A stretch of DNA of 64,000 bases from Escherichia coli (GTDB lineage Bacteria; Pseudomonadota; Gammaproteobacteria; Enterobacterales; Enterobacteriaceae): assembly GCF_024502345.1 (NCBI RefSeq), contig NZ_JALDNN010000001.1. The stretch is one strand, 5' to 3'. The position numbers and the translations under genes are program-made. The notes beneath the pieces are model-generated. The model searched no databases and had not been told where the DNA came from. It saw only the letters and a program-made list of their open reading frames with translations. Shown here in pieces: positions 22,811 to 47,810 of the stretch; the stretch's first letter is position 1; each line of letters starts with the position of its first letter.

Positions 22811-22939
22811 TTCACCGGTGGAAGTCGGTGCGGCTGGCCTACGCTCTCGCACCGACTTGTAGGCCTGATAAGACGTGTTAAGCGTCGCATCAGGCAATGT
22901 GCACCCTACGTTGGATGCGGCGCGAGCGCCTTATCCAAC
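22811..22939. repeat. Terminator hairpin plus REP elements between yiaT and the GH127 gene
   Basis: 11-bp stem aagtcggtgcg / cgcaccgactt (22822-22858), then REP-like gtaggcctgataagacgtgttaagcgtcgcatcaggc and gatgcggcgcgagcgccttatcc. Confidence 0.55.
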
Positions 22940-24910
22940 TTACGGATGGCAATGCTTTTCCTCATTCACCCAGATCTTCATTTCGCCTTCACCCCGGTTA
23001 GCCCAGCTAAACCACGGGATAAAGGTCAGAGTTTGCGGCTGGCGTTTGGCTGGGGCATAGTCGTAATGCCACAACGGTTGTTGTTCTGGATTGCTCTGTT
23101 CATACCGGTAACCCGGTGCCTGGATTAAGATCTTATGGCTGAACAATCCCTTACCTTCAAATGTCGTAAATGGCGCATCGGCGGGCAGCCACAGATTATG
23201 CAGTGACTCGCCGTTGTCGGCCTGTTCCAGGCAATACACCAGCAGGCCGCGCTGAATCGCCACTTTTCCGGCGACGTGACGCACCAGCGGGTTACCGTAA
23301 ACGCGGCGTACCGGCATCGGCAAAGTCAGATTCAGCGTATCGCCCTCCTGCCATTCGCGGGTAATGTGCAAATACCCTTTACGAATATCCTGCTCGACCT
23401 CTTCCCCATTCAATATGATCTGCGGCTGTGTGCACCAGTCCGGCAGACGTAAAGCCAGCGTATGACGTACCGGCTGGGGCGATTCAACCGCAATCGTCAC
23501 CTGCTCCTGCCACGGATAGTTCCCGCTAACCCGCAGGCGCAGCGTGCCATTTTCTACCGGCACTTCCATGCTGTTTCCTGCGTAGATGTTGATATACAAC
23601 GCATCTTCACGCGGCGTGTAGAGATAATGACCAATCGAGGTCAGCACGCGGGCGATATTTGGCGGACAACAAGCGCAGCCAAACCAACGCTGGCGGATCG
23701 GTTTAACGTGATCGTAGATATGGTTGAATTTCAGCGATTTTGGATGTACTTCCAGCGGATTCACATAGAAGAAATGTTTGCCATCCAGCGCCATGCCGCC
23801 GAGCACGGTGTTGTACAGTGCGCGCTCCATCACATCGGCATATTGACTGTCGCCTTCCATTTCCAGCATTCGTCGGGCAAACATCATCAGGCCGATGGAG
23901 GCGCAACTTTCAGCGTATACCGTGTCATTCGGCAGATCGTAATCGCTAGTGAACGCTTCGCCGCTGCTTTGCGAGCCAATGCCGCCGGTAATATATAACT
24001 GACGCTGGGCCATATTGTTCCACAGCCGCAGGCAGTCCTGACGCTTGCTGTCATCGTGACTTAAACGCGCGAGATGCGCGACGCCGGTCATCAGATAGAC
24101 AAAACGTACCGCGTGACCGATGGCGGTTTGCTGTTGCGCAAGGGGCAAATGTGCCTGGCTGTAGGCTTTGTCTTTCACCATCCACGCCGGGCCGTAGGTG
24201 TGCCAGTGCGATGTCTGCCCGCGCTTTTCATATTCCTGGTCGTAATAGTGCGGTTGCGCACCACGCTGTTCGACAAAATAGTTCGTCAGCGCCAGGTAGC
24301 GCGGCTCTTCAGTCACTTCATACAGGCGCATTAGTGCCAGTTCAATTTCCGGGTGACCAGGATAACCGTGTAACTTACTTTCATCTGGACCAAATACGCT
24401 GTCGATATTATCGGCCAGGCGGCAAACGACCCCCAGCAAGCGCCGTTTTCCCGTGGCCTGGAAGAAGGCGACTCCGGCTTCAATCAGATGACCTGCGCAG
24501 TAAAGTTCATGACACTCCGCCAGATTGCTCCAGCGTTCTTCGGGTGCTTTTACCGTAAAGTAAGTATTGAGATAGCCGTCTTCGCATTGGGCGGAGGCGA
24601 TCAGTTCGATTACCTCGTCGGCGGTTTTTTCCAGTTCGGCGTCCGGCTTCTGGCACAGCGACCAGGCTACCGCTTCCAGCCATTTGGCGACGTCGCTGTC
24701 CTGAAACACCATCCCGTAAAATTCACCCTCCTGAAGTCCGGCGGCAATGCGAAAGTTTTCAATCGCATGGCTGGGTTCCGCTTCTGGGATACGATCGTTC
24801 AAGGCATCCCACTGATAAGGAATCACCACGTCGCGGACCAGTTGTTGGTACTGACCGAGGAACGGATCGCTGACCGTCAGTTTATGCAGATCGACTTCCG
24901 AAATGTTCAT
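22940..24910 (-). CDS. Glycoside hydrolase family 127-like enzyme (beta-L-arabinofuranosidase family, DUF1680)
   Basis: About 656 aa from ATG at 24910 with AAGGAG RBS. Contains E-x-C (ESCAS) and, about 77 residues later, CACCPPN, matching the spacing of the Zn-binding/catalytic Glu338/Cys340 and Cys417/Cys418 of HypBA1 as I recall it. Confidence 0.7.
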   Translation of the reverse strand: MNISEVDLHKLTVSDPFLGQYQQLVRDVVIPYQWDALNDRIPEAEPSHAIENFRIAAGLQEGEFYGMVFQDSDVAKWLEAVAWSLCQKPDAELEKTADEVIELIASAQCEDGYLNTYFTVKAPEERWSNLAECHELYCAGHLIEAGVAFFQATGKRRLLGVVCRLADNIDSVFGPDESKLHGYPGHPEIELALMRLYEVTEEPRYLALTNYFVEQRGAQPHYYDQEYEKRGQTSHWHTYGPAWMVKDKAYSQAHLPLAQQQTAIGHAVRFVYLMTGVAHLARLSHDDSKRQDCLRLWNNMAQRQLYITGGIGSQSSGEAFTSDYDLPNDTVYAESCASIGLMMFARRMLEMEGDSQYADVMERALYNTVLGGMALDGKHFFYVNPLEVHPKSLKFNHIYDHVKPIRQRWFGCACCPPNIARVLTSIGHYLYTPREDALYINIYAGNSMEVPVENGTLRLRVSGNYPWQEQVTIAVESPQPVRHTLALRLPDWCTQPQIILNGEEVEQDIRKGYLHITREWQEGDTLNLTLPMPVRRVYGNPLVRHVAGKVAIQRGLLVYCLEQADNGESLHNLWLPADAPFTTFEGKGLFSHKILIQAPGYRYEQSNPEQQPLWHYDYAPAKRQPQTLTFIPWFSWANRGEGEMKIWVNEEKHCHP

Positions 24911-28086: not shown

Positions 28087-28224
28087 TCCGGCGTTTCTCA
28101 ACGCCGGAATAGTGCGCTTTGTTTATGCCAGATGCGGCGTAAACGCCTTATCCGGCCTACAAATTCTTCCAAATTCAATATATTGCAGAAATTATGTAGG
28201 CCTGATAAGCGTAGCGCATCAGGC
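28087..28224. repeat. Terminator hairpin plus REP/BIME pair between ysaA and avtA
   Basis: Hairpin ccggcgtt-tctca-acgccgg; REP gccagatgcggcgtaaacgccttatccggcctac (28128-28160) and inverted copy gtaggcctgataagcgtagcgcatcaggc (28196-28224). Confidence 0.55.
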
Positions 28225-43781: not shown

Positions 43782-44693
43782 ATGCAAAAGTTTGATACCA
43801 GGACCTTCCAGGGCTTGATCCTGACCTTACAGGATTACTGGGCTCGCCAGGGCTGCACCATTGTTCAACCATTGGACATGGAAGTCGGCGCGGGAACCTC
43901 TCACCCAATGACCTGTCTGCGCGCGCTGGGGCCAGAACCGATGGCGGCTGCTTATGTTCAGCCTTCTCGTCGCCCGACCGATGGTCGCTACGGCGAAAAC
44001 CCCAACCGTTTACAGCACTACTATCAGTTCCAGGTGGTCATTAAGCCATCGCCGGACAATATTCAGGAGCTGTACCTCGGTTCTCTGAAAGAGCTGGGCA
44101 TGGACCCGACTATTCACGACATCCGTTTCGTGGAAGATAACTGGGAAAACCCGACTCTGGGTGCCTGGGGACTGGGCTGGGAAGTGTGGCTAAACGGCAT
44201 GGAAGTGACGCAGTTCACTTACTTCCAGCAGGTTGGTGGTCTGGAGTGTAAACCGGTTACCGGCGAGATCACCTACGGTCTGGAACGTCTGGCCATGTAC
44301 ATTCAGGGCGTAGACAGCGTTTACGACCTGGTCTGGAGCGACGGCCCGCTGGGTAAAACCACCTACGGCGACGTGTTCCATCAGAACGAAGTGGAGCAGT
44401 CCACTTACAACTTCGAATACGCGGATGTGGACTTCCTGTTCACCTGCTTTGAGCAGTACGAGAAAGAAGCGCAGCAGCTGCTGGCGCTGGAAAATCCGCT
44501 GCCGCTGCCAGCCTACGAGCGTATTCTGAAAGCCGCCCACAGCTTCAACCTGCTGGATGCGCGTAAAGCCATCTCCGTCACCGAGCGTCAGCGCTACATT
44601 CTGCGCATTCGCACCCTGACCAAAGCAGTGGCAGAAGCATACTACGCTTCCCGTGAAGCCCTCGGCTTCCCGATGTGCAACAAAGATAAGTAA
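43782..44693 (+). CDS. glyQ: Glycine--tRNA ligase alpha subunit
   Basis: 303-aa ORF recognised as GlyQ. Confidence 0.96.
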
Positions 44694-44702
44694 GAGGCGG
44701 CT

Positions 44703-46772
44703 ATGTCTGAGAAAACTTTTCTGGTGGAAATCGGCACTGAAGAGCTGCCACCAAAAGCACTGCGCAGCCTGGCTGAGTCCTTTGCTGCGAATTTTACTGC
44801 GGAGCTGGATAACGCTGGCCTCGCACACGGCACCGTTCAATGGTTTGCTGCTCCGCGTCGTCTGGCGCTGAAAGTAGCTAACCTGGCGGAAGCGCAACCG
44901 GATCGTGAAATCGAAAAACGCGGCCCGGCGATTGCCCAGGCGTTCGACGCTGAAGGCAAACCGAGCAAAGCGGCAGAAGGTTGGGCGCGTGGTTGCGGTA
45001 TTACCGTTGACCAGGCTGAGCGTCTGACTACCGATAAAGGCGAATGGCTGCTGTATCGCGCCCATGTGAAGGGCGAAAGCACCGAAGCACTGCTGCCGAA
45101 TATGGTTGCGACTTCTCTGGCGAAACTGCCGATCCCGAAACTGATGCGTTGGGGCGCAAGCGACGTGCACTTCGTGCGTCCGGTGCACACCGTGACCCTG
45201 CTGCTGGGCGACAAAGTCATTCCGGCAACCATTCTGGGCATTCAGTCCGATCGCGTGATTCGCGGCCACCGCTTTATGGGCGAGCCGGAATTCACCATCG
45301 ATAACGCCGATCAGTATCCGGAAATTCTGCGTGAGCGTGGGAAAGTCATCGCCGATTACGAAGAACGTAAGGCGAAGATTAAAGCCGATGCCGAAGAAGC
45401 AGCGCGTAAGATTGGCGGTAACGCTGACTTAAGCGAAAGCCTGCTGGAAGAAGTGGCTTCGCTGGTGGAGTGGCCGGTCGTTCTGACCGCAAAATTCGAA
45501 GAGAAATTCCTCGCGGTGCCGGCTGAAGCGCTGGTTTACACCATGAAAGGTGACCAGAAATACTTCCCGGTGTATGCGAACGACGGCAAACTGCTGCCGA
45601 ACTTTATCTTCGTTGCCAACATCGAATCGAAAGATCCGCAGCAAATTATCTCTGGTAACGAGAAAGTCGTTCGTCCGCGTCTGGCGGATGCCGAGTTCTT
45701 CTTCAACACCGACCGTAAAAAACGTCTTGAAGATAACCTGCCGCGCCTGCAAACCGTGTTGTTCCAGCAACAGTTGGGGACGCTGCGCGACAAAACTGAC
45801 CGCATCCAGGCGCTGGCTGGCTGGATTGCTGAACAGATTGGCGCTGACGTTAACCACGCTACCCGTGCGGGTCTGCTGTCTAAGTGCGACCTGATGACCA
45901 ACATGGTCTTCGAGTTCACCGACACCCAGGGCGTTATGGGGATGCACTATGCGCGTCACGATGGCGAAGCGGAAGATGTCGCGGTGGCGCTGAATGAGCA
46001 GTATCAGCCGCGCTTTGCCGGTGATGACCTGCCGTCTAACCCGGTAGCCTGTGCGCTGGCGATTGCTGACAAGATGGATACTCTGGCGGGTATCTTCGGT
46101 ATCGGCCAGCATCCGAAAGGCGACAAAGACCCGTTTGCGCTGCGTCGTGCCGCACTTGGCGTGCTGCGAATTATCGTTGAGAAGAACCTCAACCTTGATC
46201 TGCAAACGCTGACCGAAGAAGCGGTGCGTCTGTATGGCGATAAGCTGACTAATGCCAACGTAGTTGATGATGTTATCGACTTTATGCTCGGTCGCTTCCG
46301 CGCCTGGTATCAGGACGAAGGTTATACCGTTGACACCATCCAGGCGGTACTGGCGCGTCGTCCGACTCGTCCGGCTGATTTCGATGCCCGTATGAAAGCG
46401 GTATCGCATTTCCGTACCCTGGATGCAGCTGCTGCACTGGCGGCGGCGAACAAACGTGTATCTAACATTCTGGCGAAATCTGACGAAGTGCTGAGCGATC
46501 GCGTGAATGCCTCTACCCTGAAAGAGCCGGAAGAAATTAAACTGGCGATGCAGGTTGTGGTGCTACGTGACAAGCTGGAGCCGTACTTTGCGGAAGGTCG
46601 TTACCAGGATGCGCTGGTCGAACTGGCTGAGCTGCGTGAACCGGTTGATGCTTTCTTCGATAAAGTGATGGTAATGGTTGATGACAAAGAATTGCGTATC
46701 AACCGTCTGACCATGCTGGAGAAACTGCGCGAACTGTTCCTGCGCGTTGCGGATATTTCGCTGTTGCAGTAA
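44703..46772 (+). CDS. glyS: Glycine--tRNA ligase beta subunit
   Basis: 689-aa ORF recognised as GlyS. Confidence 0.96.
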
Positions 46773-46787
46773 TAACGCCGTTATTAA

Positions 46788-46818
46788 AAAGCCTGCCATC
46801 TGGCAGGCTTTTTTTATT
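46788..46818 (+). terminator. Rho-independent terminator of glyQS
   Basis: agcctgcc-atct-ggcaggct followed by a T-run. Confidence 0.7.
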
Positions 46819-46979
46819 ATCGCTAAATAATACAGCAACCTTTAATAATCTTCTGCTGAATAAAGATTATCTCATATATTAATTTTATGAGGTTTTTTTA
46901 GGATTATATCAAGGAGAAGAAACAAACTTATTAAGCTAGAATAGCCACGGGTGCTTGAGACTGTTTGTCTCAGGTATTC

Positions 46980-47060
46980 ACCGAAAGGCAGACAGAGAAA
47001 AGCCCCACCTGACTATAAATCAAAGTGAGGCTACCCTATGCCTGAACACCATAAGGTTAG
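46980..47060 (-). ncRNA. sokA: Putative SokA antisense RNA of the hokA/sokA type I toxin-antitoxin locus
   Basis: Placed by analogy with hok/sok loci, where Sok is antisense to the mok translation-initiation region (here the mok-like ATG at 47038). Boundaries approximate; no promoter or terminator mapped. Confidence 0.3.
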
Positions 47061-47097
47061 CCTCTTACTCGTTGGAAATCAACACAGGGGGCTGGGA

Positions 47098-47250
47098 ATG
47101 CCGCAGAAATATAGATTACTTTCTTTAATAGTGATTTGTTTCACGCTTTTATTTTTCACCTGGATGATAAGAGATTCACTGTGTGAATTGCATATTAAAC
47201 AGGGGAGTTATGAGCTGGCGGCATTTTTAGCCTGCAATTTAAAAGAGTAA
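47098..47250 (+). CDS. hokA: Hok-family type I toxin HokA, with an in-frame upstream mok-like start at 47038
   Basis: 50-aa product MPQKYRLLSLIVICFTLLFFTWMIRDSLCELHIKQGSYELAAFLACNLKE (single TM, Hok signature). An in-frame ATG at 47038 with SD gtgagg gives a 70-aa reading frame. No IS element follows. Confidence 0.8.
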   Translation: MPQKYRLLSLIVICFTLLFFTWMIRDSLCELHIKQGSYELAAFLACNLKE

Positions 47251-47258
47251 GAGTCTTC

Positions 47259-47285
47259 GGCGGGAAGTTATTCCCGCCTTTCTTA
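47259..47285 (+). terminator. Hairpin at the 3' end of the hokA transcript
   Basis: ggcggga-agtta-tcccgcc followed by tttctt. Confidence 0.45.
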
Positions 47286-47380
47286 CGGCGTTGCGCATTC
47301 TCATTGCACCCAAATTTATTTTTCACAAAAATAATACTAGATTTTATTACGCGATCGATTATTTATTTCCTGAAAAACAA

Positions 47381-47410
47381 ATAAAAAAATCCCCGCCAAA
47401 TGGCAGGGAT
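47381..47410 (-). terminator. cspA rho-independent terminator
   Basis: On the minus strand ccctgcc-attt-ggcgggg followed by a T-run. Confidence 0.6.
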
Positions 47411-47437
47411 CTTAGATTCTGTGCTTTTAAGCAGAGA

Positions 47438-47650
47438 TTACAGGCTGGTTACGTTACCAGCTGCCGGGCCTTTAGCGCCGCTTTCGATGGTGAAGGACAC
47501 TTTCTGACCTTCGTCCAGAGATTTGTAACCATCGTTCTGGATAGCAGAGAAGTGTACGAACACGTCTTTAGAGCCATCGTCAGGAGTGATGAAGCCGAAG
47601 CCTTTGTCAGCGTTGAACCATTTTACGATACCAGTCATTTTACCGGACAT
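47438..47650 (-). CDS. cspA: Major cold-shock protein CspA
   Basis: 70 aa, [21 protein letters not shown] with RNP motifs. Confidence 0.96.
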
Positions 47651-47810
47651 AGTGTATTACCTTTAATAATTAAGTGTGCCTTTCGGCGATATGGCGTGCT
47701 TTACAGATTTTGAAGCGTTAAAGGAATGTGCACTACGAGGGGTATCAACGATAACTCTTGAAGGGACTTGCCTTACTACACTGCTTTAATGGTCTGTACG
47801 TCAAACCGTT
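47651..47810 (-). promoter_or_regulatory. cspA long 5' UTR (cold-responsive RNA thermosensor region)
   Basis: About 160 nt between the presumed promoter and the cspA ATG; established for K-12 cspA. Exact 5' end not determined. Confidence 0.55.

What the first reader, a model, noticed from the sequence alone, without database searches (positions are those of the whole stretch)
46820..47290. Apparently intact hokA/mokA type I toxin locus, not interrupted by an IS element
In K-12 the hokA locus is associated with IS150 (insJK lies between glyS and cspA). Here glyS is followed directly by a complete Hok-family toxin ORF (50 aa), an in-frame upstream start with its own SD giving a 70-aa mok-like frame, a 5' leader with inverted repeats, and a 3' hairpin, with no IS. 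If the antisense Sok RNA is also intact this is a potentially functional chromosomal toxin-antitoxin (post-segregational killing or persistence type) module.
Basis: partly seen in the sequence, partly recalled or inferred. Interest (0 to 1): 0.5.

Follow-up and report, generated by a model that had tools for sequence, protein, structure and literature searches.

The report
Uninterrupted hokA/mokA/sokA toxin-antitoxin locus
This is the ordinary, already characterised chromosomal hokA/sokA toxin-antisense RNA locus of E. coli in its IS-free form, which about half of all sequenced E. coli carry; the K-12 version split by IS150 is just the other common variant.

Summary
Between glyS and cspA the window carries a complete hok-family type I toxin-antitoxin locus with no IS element. 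It has a 50-aa HokA ORF, an in-frame 70-aa mokA frame with its own SD, and a 5' leader matching Rfam RF01794 over its full length. It also has a 3' hairpin, a downstream fbi element that pairs with the mRNA 5' end, and an antisense sokA gene with promoter and terminator.

The mRNA starts at 46949, not 46820, and the fbi at 47299-47311 lies beyond 47290.

None of this is new. RefSeq annotates hokA here in essentially every E. coli genome, and 2800 of 5426 complete genomes have the uninterrupted leader. The transcribed region through 47292 is identical to E. coli C, the strain in which hokA/sokA was characterised in 1999. Secondary sources report that allele as toxic when overexpressed, but unable to mediate post-segregational killing and not activated by rifampicin.

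Regulation therefore very probably works as in plasmid R1 hok/sok, while the physiological role remains unknown.

Side observation: IS150 has hit the same few bases just 5' of the mokA SD several times independently, at the position homologous to reported IS150 insertions next to hokC.

The parts
46937..46942 (+). Putative hokA promoter -10 (TAGAAT), 6 nt upstream of the mRNA start. There is no good -35, as in R1 hok.
   Evidence: Read directly. It aligns with the R1-type TATGAT -10. It is inferred, not shown, and the consensus scan did not list it.
46949..47324 (+). Predicted full-length hokA mRNA, about 376 nt. The 3' end is approximate and is placed in the T-run after fbi by analogy with R1.
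   Evidence: The 5' end is position 1 of the RF01794 model. The fold of 46949-47312 has dG -139.8 and z -8.4, with 5'-3' closure. The R1-type mRNA folds the same way.
46949..46959 (+). tac element (GGGUGCUUGAG). It pairs with fbi in the full-length RNA and with ucb in the 3'-trimmed RNA.
   Evidence: It is invariant in 7 E. coli alleles.
46961..46995 (+). 5' leader hairpin enclosed by the tac-ucb stem.
   Evidence: the Rfam consensus structure, and the RNAalifold consensus with compensatory pairs.
47000..47006 (+). ucb (AAGCCCC), the partner of tac in the processed mRNA.
   Evidence: Fold of 46949-47284. The pairs are kept in 7 of 7 family members.
47027..47064 (+). SokA target hairpin (sokT). 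It holds the mokA SD (GAGG, 47027-47030) and the mokA ATG in its stem, and the loop CCUGAACAC (47041-47049) carries the YUNR motif CUGA.
   Evidence: Inverted repeat I6, 11 nt, 91% complementary. Also in the Rfam structure and in the alifold consensus with both-sides-changed pairs.
47038..47250 (+). mokA reading frame, 70 codons, in frame with hokA and ending at the same stop.
   Evidence: The layout matches the R1-type locus, which has an in-frame ATG 19 codons upstream of hok. It is open in 7 of 8 E. coli alleles examined.
47098..47250 (+). hokA toxin ORF, 50 aa, with Cys29 and Cys46 hard-coded.
   Evidence: NCBIfam NF007290 at 131.9 bits. Pfam PF01848. 40% identity to R1 Hok. The protein is identical to WP_001135738.1 of E. 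coli C.
47055..47083 (-). sokA promoter: -35 TTGATT (47083-47078), 17-nt spacer, -10 TAACCT (47060-47055).
   Evidence: It aligns column for column with R1 TTGCGC-17-TATCCT. TTG and TA...T are invariant in 6 family members and in 7 E. coli alleles. Activity is inferred.
46992..47049 (-). Predicted SokA antisense RNA, about 57 nt. Its 5' tail is complementary to the target loop and the mokA start. Terminator stem-loop at 47032-47001, U-run at 47000-46994.
   Evidence: Fold with dG -19.9 and z -2.9. The 3' end coincides with the sokA remnant annotated in MG1655, b4614. The 5' end is inferred from the -10 position.
47259..47278 (+). 3' hairpin (GGCGGGAA-GTTA-TTCCCGCC) followed by UUUCUU. It is the presumed stop for 3' exonucleolytic trimming, so the processed mRNA would end near 47284.
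   Evidence: The R1-type locus has the equivalent hairpin.
47299..47311 (+). fbi fold-back inhibition element (CUCAUUGCACCC), complementary to tac.
   Evidence: Duplex of -18.9 kcal/mol, against -11.2 +/- 2.0 for shuffled 5' ends (0 of 300 as good). The equivalent element sits at +350 to +392 in five other hok loci, with compensatory changes.

Best explanation
This is the chromosomal hokA/mokA/sokA type I toxin-antitoxin locus in its uninterrupted, non-K-12 form. It is the same allele as in E. coli C.

Inferred mechanism, by homology with plasmid R1 hok/sok:
1. A weak promoter (-10 at 46937-46942) makes a hokA mRNA of about 376 nt.
2. The 5' end (tac, 46949-46959) is locked to the 3' end (fbi, 47299-47311). 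The RNA can therefore neither be translated nor bind antisense RNA.
3. Slow 3' trimming back to the hairpin at 47259-47278 removes fbi.
4. The 5' end then re-pairs with ucb (47000-47006). The target hairpin (47027-47064) forms and exposes the mokA start region.
5. SokA is a short-lived antisense RNA of about 57 nt, made from TTGATT-17-TAACCT on the minus strand. It binds the target loop and blocks mokA translation. hokA translation is coupled to mokA, so hokA stays silent.
6. If SokA were lost, the 50-aa membrane toxin HokA would be made.

Shown here: every sequence and structure element is present, and they are conserved or covary. Inferred: transcription, processing and coupling.

In single copy on the chromosome the locus is normally silent. 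According to published tests on the identical allele it does not give post-segregational killing. Its physiological role is unknown and it is evidently dispensable, since about 48% of E. coli have it broken by IS150.
For: Toxin:
- HokA equivalog at 131.9 bits, cut-off 89.
- PF01848.

Leader:
- RF01794 full-length hit, 124.9 bits.
- An independent RNAalifold consensus on 7 family members recovers the tac-ucb stem, hairpin I and the target hairpin. Seven pairs are changed on both sides.

Conformational switch:
- The full-length fold closes 5' on 3' (z -8.4).
- The 3'-trimmed fold re-pairs the 5' end with ucb.
- The R1-type mRNA does the same.

tac-fbi:
- 0 of 300 shuffles are as good.
- Compensatory changes are seen against IncI1 loci (U-A to C-G, A-U to G-C) and against a Vibrio plasmid locus.

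sokA:
- Promoter alignment.
- Terminator.
- MG1655 sokA remnant.

Synteny and ubiquity:
- glyS-hokA-cspA, annotated as hokA by RefSeq.
- Uninterrupted in 2830 of 5426 genomes and 2800 of 5426.

Identity to the characterised allele:
- E. coli C is identical from 46925 to 47292.

Literature:
- hokA/sokA of E. coli C is regulated 'in the usual manner' (PMC3562002).
- HokA is toxic and needs no RNA editing. E. coli C hokA shows no PSK and no rifampicin activation (bioRxiv 10.1101/2025.08.07.668861).
- K-12 hok loci are inactivated by IS elements and other lesions (PMC2654758; PMC11551753).
Against: - No expression data are available for this window, so promoter activity, RNA half-lives and processing are all inferred.
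- The consensus promoter scan lists neither the hokA nor the sokA promoter. The functional R1-type sok promoter also fails that scan, so this is uninformative.
- The sokA -10 (TAACCT) matches only 3 of 6 consensus positions.
- The ucb-dcb pairing of the R1 model was not recovered in the MFE fold.
- The primary paper (Pedersen & Gerdes 1999) could not be read. Its results are taken from citing papers and from my own recollection.
- The window differs from E. coli C at 47293-47294, between the 3' hairpin and fbi, and at 46924 upstream of the -10.
Confidence: 0.88

Rival explanations
1. The locus is an active killer or addiction module. Loss of SokA, for example through transcription shut-off or loss of the region, would let processed hokA mRNA be translated. 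The cell would be killed or made dormant. This would stabilise the glyS-cspA region or produce persisters.
For: - All regulatory elements of a PSK-competent hok/sok locus are present and conserved.
- HokA is toxic on overexpression.
- One citing paper states that ECOR-strain hok loci are 'active' (PMC1635323).
Against: - The identical E. coli C allele is reported not to mediate PSK and not to be activated by rifampicin.
- About 48% of E. coli genomes carry IS150-broken versions without apparent cost.
- The locus sits in core-genome context, with nothing obviously mobile to stabilise.
Confidence: 0.12
2. The locus acts as an abortive-infection phage defence. Phage-induced shut-off of host transcription would deplete SokA, and HokA would kill the infected cell before phage release. 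This has been reported for R1 hok/sok against T4 (my recollection of Pecota & Wood 1996, not retrieved here).
For: The architecture is the same as R1 hok/sok. The presence/absence polymorphism in the species resembles that of defence genes.
Against: - The reported lack of activation by rifampicin, a transcription shut-off, argues against it.
- The locus is in a fixed core position in 5425 of 5426 genomes, not in a defence island.
- The PADLOC library was not searched, and there are no phage data.
Confidence: 0.05
3. The locus looks intact but is cryptically defective, a decaying relic. Subtle features would keep HokA from ever reaching toxic levels, and the sequence would be drifting toward loss. 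Candidate features are a very weak hokA promoter without a -35, a G-rich weak hokA SD buried in long-range pairing, or a tac-fbi lock that is too stable.
For: - No PSK was found despite a correct RNA anatomy.
- No -35 can be seen for hokA.
- Inactivation recurs in nature and in laboratory evolution.
- One allele (S21EC) has a 1-bp deletion that puts mok out of frame, plus an fbi mismatch.
Against: - Among uninterrupted alleles that differ by up to about 4%, tac, ucb, the Sok terminator, the mok SD, both sokA hexamers and fbi are invariant or nearly so. That is not expected of a freely drifting relic.
- The toxin ORF is intact in every allele examined, including the IS150-broken ones.
Confidence: 0.3

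Closest known systems
hokA/sokA of Escherichia coli C (Pedersen & Gerdes 1999, Mol Microbiol 32:1090)
   Same: Same chromosomal position (glyS-hokA-cspA), no IS, and the same HokA protein (WP_001135738.1). The DNA is identical from window 46925 to 47292. That span covers the -10, tac, ucb, the target hairpin, mokA, hokA, the sokA promoter and terminator, and the 3' hairpin. fbi is also identical.
   Different: Two adjacent differences at 47293-47294 (GC versus A plus a gap) lie in the spacer between the 3' hairpin and fbi. One difference lies at 47321, and a few lie upstream of the promoter, at 46924 and in the glyS terminator region. None touches a defined element.
hokA locus of E. coli K-12 MG1655 / BL21 (hokA b4455, mokA and sokA pseudogenes, IS150 insJK)
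   Same: Orthologous locus with the same flanks. hokA ORF is intact. The 5' leader up to 47026 and everything from 47066 onward are 97-98% identical.
   Different: K-12 carries IS150 (1443 bp) and lacks window 47027-47065. The missing 39 bp hold the mokA SD and ATG, the SokA 5' half and the sokA -10. hokA is therefore cut off from its promoter, and sokA is a 35-nt remnant. HokA differs at two residues (G36E, N47K). The SD region reads AGGAGG instead of GGGGG.
hok/sok (parB) of plasmid R1
   Same: Same gene layout and the same RNA logic:
- tac at +1
- tac-ucb stem
- target hairpin with a CUGA loop
- in-frame mok
- sok promoter at the same place with a 17-nt spacer
- 3' hairpin
- fbi downstream pairing with the 5' end

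   Different: - It is chromosomal and single copy.
- The toxin is only 40% identical.
- The leader is 20 nt shorter, lacking an 18-nt insert in hairpin I.
- fbi sits closer to the 3' hairpin.
- There is no PSK phenotype according to the literature.
pnd-type loci of IncI1 plasmids (here L015 and L017)
   Same: These are the closest plasmid toxins, at 51-54% identity. The leader scores are nearly the same (131.7 and 124.7 bits). The tac-fbi geometry is nearly the same (GGGCGCUUGAGG / CCUCAUUGCGCCC at +358 to +372).
   Different: The upstream coupling frame is not in frame with the toxin in the IncI1 loci. They are plasmid-borne.

Membership tests
[quoted passage not shown] | Small hydrophobic toxin of the Hok/Gef family (about 50 aa) | tested here: met
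   Pfam PF01848, E 2.9e-23. The NCBIfam Hok family model also hits. 40% identity to R1 Hok.
[quoted passage not shown] | Upstream overlapping mok-type reading frame, with its own SD, that runs across the hok start | tested here: met
   ATG at 47038, GAGG SD at 47027-30, 70 codons, same stop as hokA. The in-frame layout matches the R1-type locus.
[quoted passage not shown] | 5' leader with a tac-ucb stem and an antisense target hairpin (covariance model RF01794) | tested here: met
   124.9 bits against a gathering score of 59, model positions 1-157 of 157. An independent alifold consensus has 7 compensatory pairs.
[quoted passage not shown] | Long-range 5'-3' pairing (tac-fbi) that closes the full-length mRNA | tested here: met
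   Present in the MFE and centroid folds. The duplex is -18.9 kcal/mol and beats all 300 shuffles. It lies at a conserved distance and shows compensatory changes in other family members.
[quoted passage not shown] | Refolding after 3' trimming, with the 5' end switching from fbi to ucb | tested here: met
   This is a prediction only: the fold of 46949-47284 pairs positions 1-8 with 47000-47006. The processing itself is not testable here.
[quoted passage not shown] | Cis-encoded antisense RNA gene (sok), with promoter and terminator, overlapping the mok translation start | tested here: met
   TTGATT-17-TAACCT aligns with R1 TTGCGC-17-TATCCT, and the invariant positions are kept. There is a terminator hairpin plus a U-run. 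The match is to the MG1655 sokA remnant. This is sequence-level evidence only.
[quoted passage not shown] | YUNR (U-turn) motif in the target loop | tested here: met
   The loop CCUGAACAC at 47041-47049 contains CUGA. The R1-type loop UCUGACAAC also contains CUGA (read).
[quoted passage not shown] | Unstable antisense RNA, stable toxin mRNA, and killing when transcription stops (PSK) | not testable with these tools
   The literature on the identical E. coli C allele reports no PSK and no rifampicin activation (citing Pedersen & Gerdes 1999).
hokA orthologue group | HokA-specific protein model and a position between glyS and cspA | tested here: met
   NF007290 equivalog at 131.9 bits, cut-off 89. 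Synteny is glyQ-glyS-hokA-cspA-yiaG, as in RefSeq genomes.
hokA orthologue group | Both cysteines (C29, C46) encoded directly, so no A-to-I editing is needed | tested here: met
   Read from the translation. The property is described for HokA in the bioRxiv preprint.

The most novel reading that the evidence does not exclude
The hok-family leader may contain a conserved IS150 insertion hot spot at the foot of the Sok-terminator hairpin, just 5' of the mok SD.

In hokA, at least two and probably three independent IS150 events map to window 47024-47028 or 47026/47066.
- The events differ in orientation and in target duplication.
- The IS copies differ by at most 1 nt in 1443, in allele backgrounds that differ by up to about 4%.
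- Laboratory-evolved lines acquired IS150 next to hokC within 1-2 nt of the homologous position.

If this reflects target recognition by the IS150 transposase rather than selection against hok loci, the hok/sok leader would be a natural, defined target site for an IS3-family element. The roughly 50:50 intact/broken polymorphism of hokA in E. coli would then be mutation-driven.

A second, weaker possibility concerns the two hokA alleles. They differ by 6 substitutions within 15 nt, exactly in the SokA recognition region, which may reflect diversifying selection on antisense specificity.
Probability: 0.3. Interest if true: 0.35.

Novelty: already known. Interest (0 to 1): 0.1.

Why it matters
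It matters little as a discovery. The locus, its IS-free wild-type form and its regulation were described in 1999, and it is annotated automatically in every E. coli genome.

Its practical value is as a reminder that K-12 is the derived state here. About half of natural E. coli keep a structurally complete hokA/sokA module whose physiological role is still unknown.

The recurrent, position-specific IS150 insertions could be used to ask whether hok loci are being lost through selection or through transposase target preference.

Tried and rejected
- **Consensus promoter scan.** It found neither the hokA nor the sokA promoter. I rejected this as evidence of absence, because the same scan misses the sok promoter of the R1-type locus. 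It did list the R1-type hok promoter.
- **Sub-threshold Rfam hits at 46716-46898** (STnc370, Phe/Trp leaders, istR, rnk). All sit on the glyS terminator hairpin and fall below gathering scores. I rejected them as terminator look-alikes.
- **Primary paper and review.** Pedersen & Gerdes 1999 and a review I recalled as PMC2593563 are not held. The supplement of PMC3562002 that holds the hokA sequence is not held either.
- **Paper searches for hokB plus IS150** found nothing.
- **REL606 position 1,272,468.** The PeerJ table as extracted lists it as trg/mokB, but it falls in chaB. The table columns appear shifted, so only the hokC site (16,972) was mapped.
- **ucb-dcb pairing.** I looked for it in the full-length fold. 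A candidate dcb (GGGGGCU, 47087-47093) exists by eye, but the MFE pairs that segment with the 3' part of the coding region instead, so it is left open.
- **Two plasmid homologues** (L018, L020) gave no RF01794 hit at the gathering score and were dropped from the comparisons.
- **Not used.** Structure prediction, the large protein-database searches and collection scans were judged unnecessary for a 50-aa toxin with an equivalog-level match.

Full report
**Observation**

The window reads glyQ (43782-44693), glyS (44703-46772), then a 665-bp intergenic region, then cspA on the minus strand (47438-47650) and yiaG. Within the intergenic region:
- A 50-aa ORF lies at 47098-47250.
- An in-frame ATG at 47038 gives a 70-aa frame. 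It is preceded by GAGG at 47027-47030.
- A G+C-rich hairpin lies at 47259-47278 and is followed by TTTCTT.
- No IS element is present.

The signals are far above chance:
- The ORF matches the NCBIfam HokA equivalog at 131.9 bits, against a cut-off of 89.
- It also matches Pfam HOK_GEF.
- The upstream 152 nt match Rfam RF01794 over the whole model, at 124.9 bits against a gathering score of 59, E 9e-30. That family is called 'sok' but models the sense-strand hok leader.

**Anatomy**

The Rfam match fixes the mRNA 5' end at 46949 (GGGTGCTTGAG). This is 6 nt downstream of a TAGAAT hexamer at 46937-46942. The 8-bp inverted repeat at 46845-46852/46863-46870 is not part of the leader.

Folding 46949-47312 gives a highly stable structure (-139.8 kcal/mol, z -8.4). 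In it the first 12 nt pair with CUCAUUGCACCC at 47299-47311.

Folding the RNA trimmed to the 3' hairpin (46949-47284) switches the 5' end onto AAGCCCC at 47000-47006. This is the tac-ucb stem of the Rfam consensus. A bona fide R1-type hok mRNA (L004:283-680) shows the same 5'-3' closure.

The tac-fbi duplex of hokA (-18.9 kcal/mol) beats all 300 shuffled controls. The equivalent element sits at +350 to +392 in five other hok loci, with compensatory changes:
- GGGUGC:GCACCC here versus GGGCGC:GCGCCC in IncI1 plasmids.
- UUGAG:CUCA versus UCUCGG:CCGUAGAG in a Vibrio plasmid.

An RNAalifold run on seven family leaders independently recovers the tac-ucb stem, hairpin I and the target hairpin. Seven pairs are changed on both sides.

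The target hairpin (47027-47064, I6) holds the mokA SD and ATG. Its loop carries a CUGA (YUNR) motif, as in R1.

**Antisense gene**

On the minus strand, TTGATT (47083-47078), a 17-nt spacer and TAACCT (47060-47055) align column for column with TTGCGC-17-TATCCT of the R1-type locus. The positions invariant in six family members (TTG...TA...T) are all retained.

Downstream is a unit of about 57 nt. It ends in a hairpin (47032-47001) plus UUUUCUCU. Its 3' end coincides with the 35-nt sokA pseudogene remnant annotated in MG1655.

The generic promoter scan does not list this promoter. It also misses the R1-type sok promoter, so the negative result is uninformative.

**Comparison with K-12 and the species**

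MG1655 carries IS150 between glyS and hokA, with mokA and sokA annotated as pseudogenes. Alignment shows that the K-12/BL21 type has IS150 and also lacks window 47027-47065. The lost segment holds the mokA SD and ATG, the 5' half of SokA and the sokA -10.

A second common type has a simple IS150 insertion in the opposite orientation at 47024-47028.

Across 5426 complete E. coli genomes:
- 5425 contain the locus.
- 2830 have at least 80% of the 671-bp region in one piece.
- 2800 have the uninterrupted 181-bp promoter-to-ATG segment.
- Even-step samples suggest about 27% K-12 type and about 17% simple-insertion type.
- RefSeq names hokA in all of them.

The IS-free state is therefore the common, presumably ancestral condition.

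**Link to experiment**

E. coli C is the strain in which wild-type hokA/sokA was studied. It has no IS here and the same HokA protein. Its DNA is identical to the window from 46925 to 47292. fbi is identical too. The only nearby differences are at 47293-47294 and 47321.

Citing papers state that:
- E. coli C hokA/sokA behaves 'in the usual manner', with a 52-nt target (PMC3562002).
- HokA is toxic on overexpression and, unlike HokB, needs no RNA editing, because both cysteines are encoded.
- The E. coli C hokA locus did not mediate PSK and was not activated by rifampicin (bioRxiv 10.1101/2025.08.07.668861).
- The K-12 copies are inactivated by IS elements, point mutation or rearrangement (PMC2654758; PMC11551753).

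I also recall from the abstract that the wild-type loci make unstable antisense RNAs and stable, 3'-processed mRNAs. The primary paper (Pedersen & Gerdes 1999) is not held, so that recollection is unverified.

**Mechanism**

The best-supported reading is that the locus is regulated as in the R1 paradigm, which is established knowledge from the Gerdes laboratory:
- Thisted & Gerdes 1992 for mok coupling.
- Franch et al. and Gultyaev et al. 1997 for tac/fbi/ucb refolding.
- Franch et al. 1999 for the U-turn.

These are cited from memory. In that model:
1. The full-length mRNA is inert.
2. 3' trimming releases tac.
3. The refolded mRNA is either captured by SokA or translated through mokA into HokA.

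The elements are shown to be present here. Transcription, processing and coupling are inferred.

Three rivals remain:
- An active PSK or persistence role is disfavoured by the published negative tests and by the dispensability of the locus.
- Phage abortive infection has no direct evidence, and the rifampicin result argues against it.
- A cryptically inert relic is possible. However, among uninterrupted alleles differing by up to about 4%, tac, ucb, the Sok terminator, the mok SD, both sokA hexamers and fbi are invariant or nearly so.

**Side observations**

1. IS150 has inserted at the same few bases repeatedly. Target duplications of 3 bp (AAG) and 5 bp (AAGTG) occur in the same orientation, and the K-12 type has the opposite orientation.
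   - The IS copies differ by 0-1 nt of 1443, while the flanks differ by up to 4%.
   - Laboratory-evolved lines gained IS150 next to hokC at REL606 16,972 (PMC5419217). On the covariance-model alignment this maps within 1-2 nt of the homologous position.
   - sokE::IS150 is reported in more than 400 isolates.
2. Two hokA alleles differ by six substitutions within 15 nt (47032-47046). This is exactly the SokA 5' recognition region around the mokA start.
3. One allele (S21EC) has a 1-bp deletion that puts mok out of frame, giving 29 aa that still overlap the hokA start.

**Verdict**

The finding is real and correctly identified, but it is ordinary and already described. Interest is low.

Noticed in passing
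window 47024-47028 and 47026/47066; loci L001, L003, L021, L022, L023: IS150 has hit the hokA leader at the same few bases several times, just 5' of the mokA SD. Two forms have the same orientation with a 3-bp or a 5-bp target duplication. The K-12/BL21 form has the opposite orientation plus a 39-bp loss. The IS copies are nearly identical while the flanks are diverged. Published lab-evolution IS150 insertions next to hokC map within 1-2 nt of the homologous position.
   Followed up: partly
window 47032-47046 (alignment A1): E. coli hokA alleles fall into two forms, TACCCTATGCCTGAA and CCCTCTATGCATAGA. They differ by 6 substitutions in 15 nt while the rest of the locus differs by about 1-3%. 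The segment is the SokA 5' recognition region and the first mokA codons. This may reflect a specificity switch or a recombination patch.
   Followed up: no
L008 (strain S21EC), position equivalent to window 47097: A 1-bp deletion just before the hokA ATG puts mok out of frame. The resulting frame is 29 aa and ends 31 nt into hokA. The same allele has a G-to-A change in fbi. This suggests that the Mok amino-acid sequence itself is not constrained.
   Followed up: partly
window 47239-47298 (-): A 19-aa ORF (MRNAVRKAGITSRRRLLLF) lies antisense to the hokA 3' end and 3' hairpin. RefSeq annotates it as a hypothetical protein. In K-12 the orthologue is the 23-aa YsaE.
   Followed up: partly
window 46845-46852 / 46863-46870: A perfect 8-bp inverted repeat (ATAATCTT / AAGATTAT) sits in the AT-rich spacer between the glyS terminator and the hokA promoter, outside the hokA transcript. 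Its function is unknown.
   Followed up: no
window 47314-47382: An imperfect 29-nt AT-rich inverted repeat (76% complementary) fills the gap between the convergent 3' ends of hokA and cspA. The cspA thermoregulator and mRNA (RF01766, 501 bits) occupy 47383-47810 on the minus strand.
   Followed up: no
window 22862-22940 (-) and 28161-28203 (+): Two Rfam hits lie above gathering score elsewhere in the window: naRNA4 (RF02564, 66.2 bits) and ES036 (RF02751, 50.3 bits).
   Followed up: no
window about 57200-62000: ORFs here (178, 232, 857 and 294 aa) correspond to a fimbrial operon that is annotated lpfC (usher) in the best-matching genomes. The best complete-genome match to window 36000-60000 is only 99.6%, so the source strain is not among the 5426 complete RefSeq genomes.
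   Followed up: no
L020 669-842 (Lelliottia plasmid); L018: A group II intron domain (RF02001, 85.9 bits) lies about 70 nt downstream of a hok homologue annotated as a DUF5431 family protein. Neither this locus nor the IncHI2 homologue L018, which sits next to an ISKpn8 transposase, reaches the RF01794 gathering score.
   Followed up: no
L012-L014 (E. coli C NZ_CP020543.1): In E. coli C the glyS-hokA-cspA segment lies about 346 kb from dnaA and in the opposite orientation to most dnaA-started assemblies, where it lies at about 165-250 kb. This indicates a large origin-proximal inversion in that assembly.
   Followed up: no
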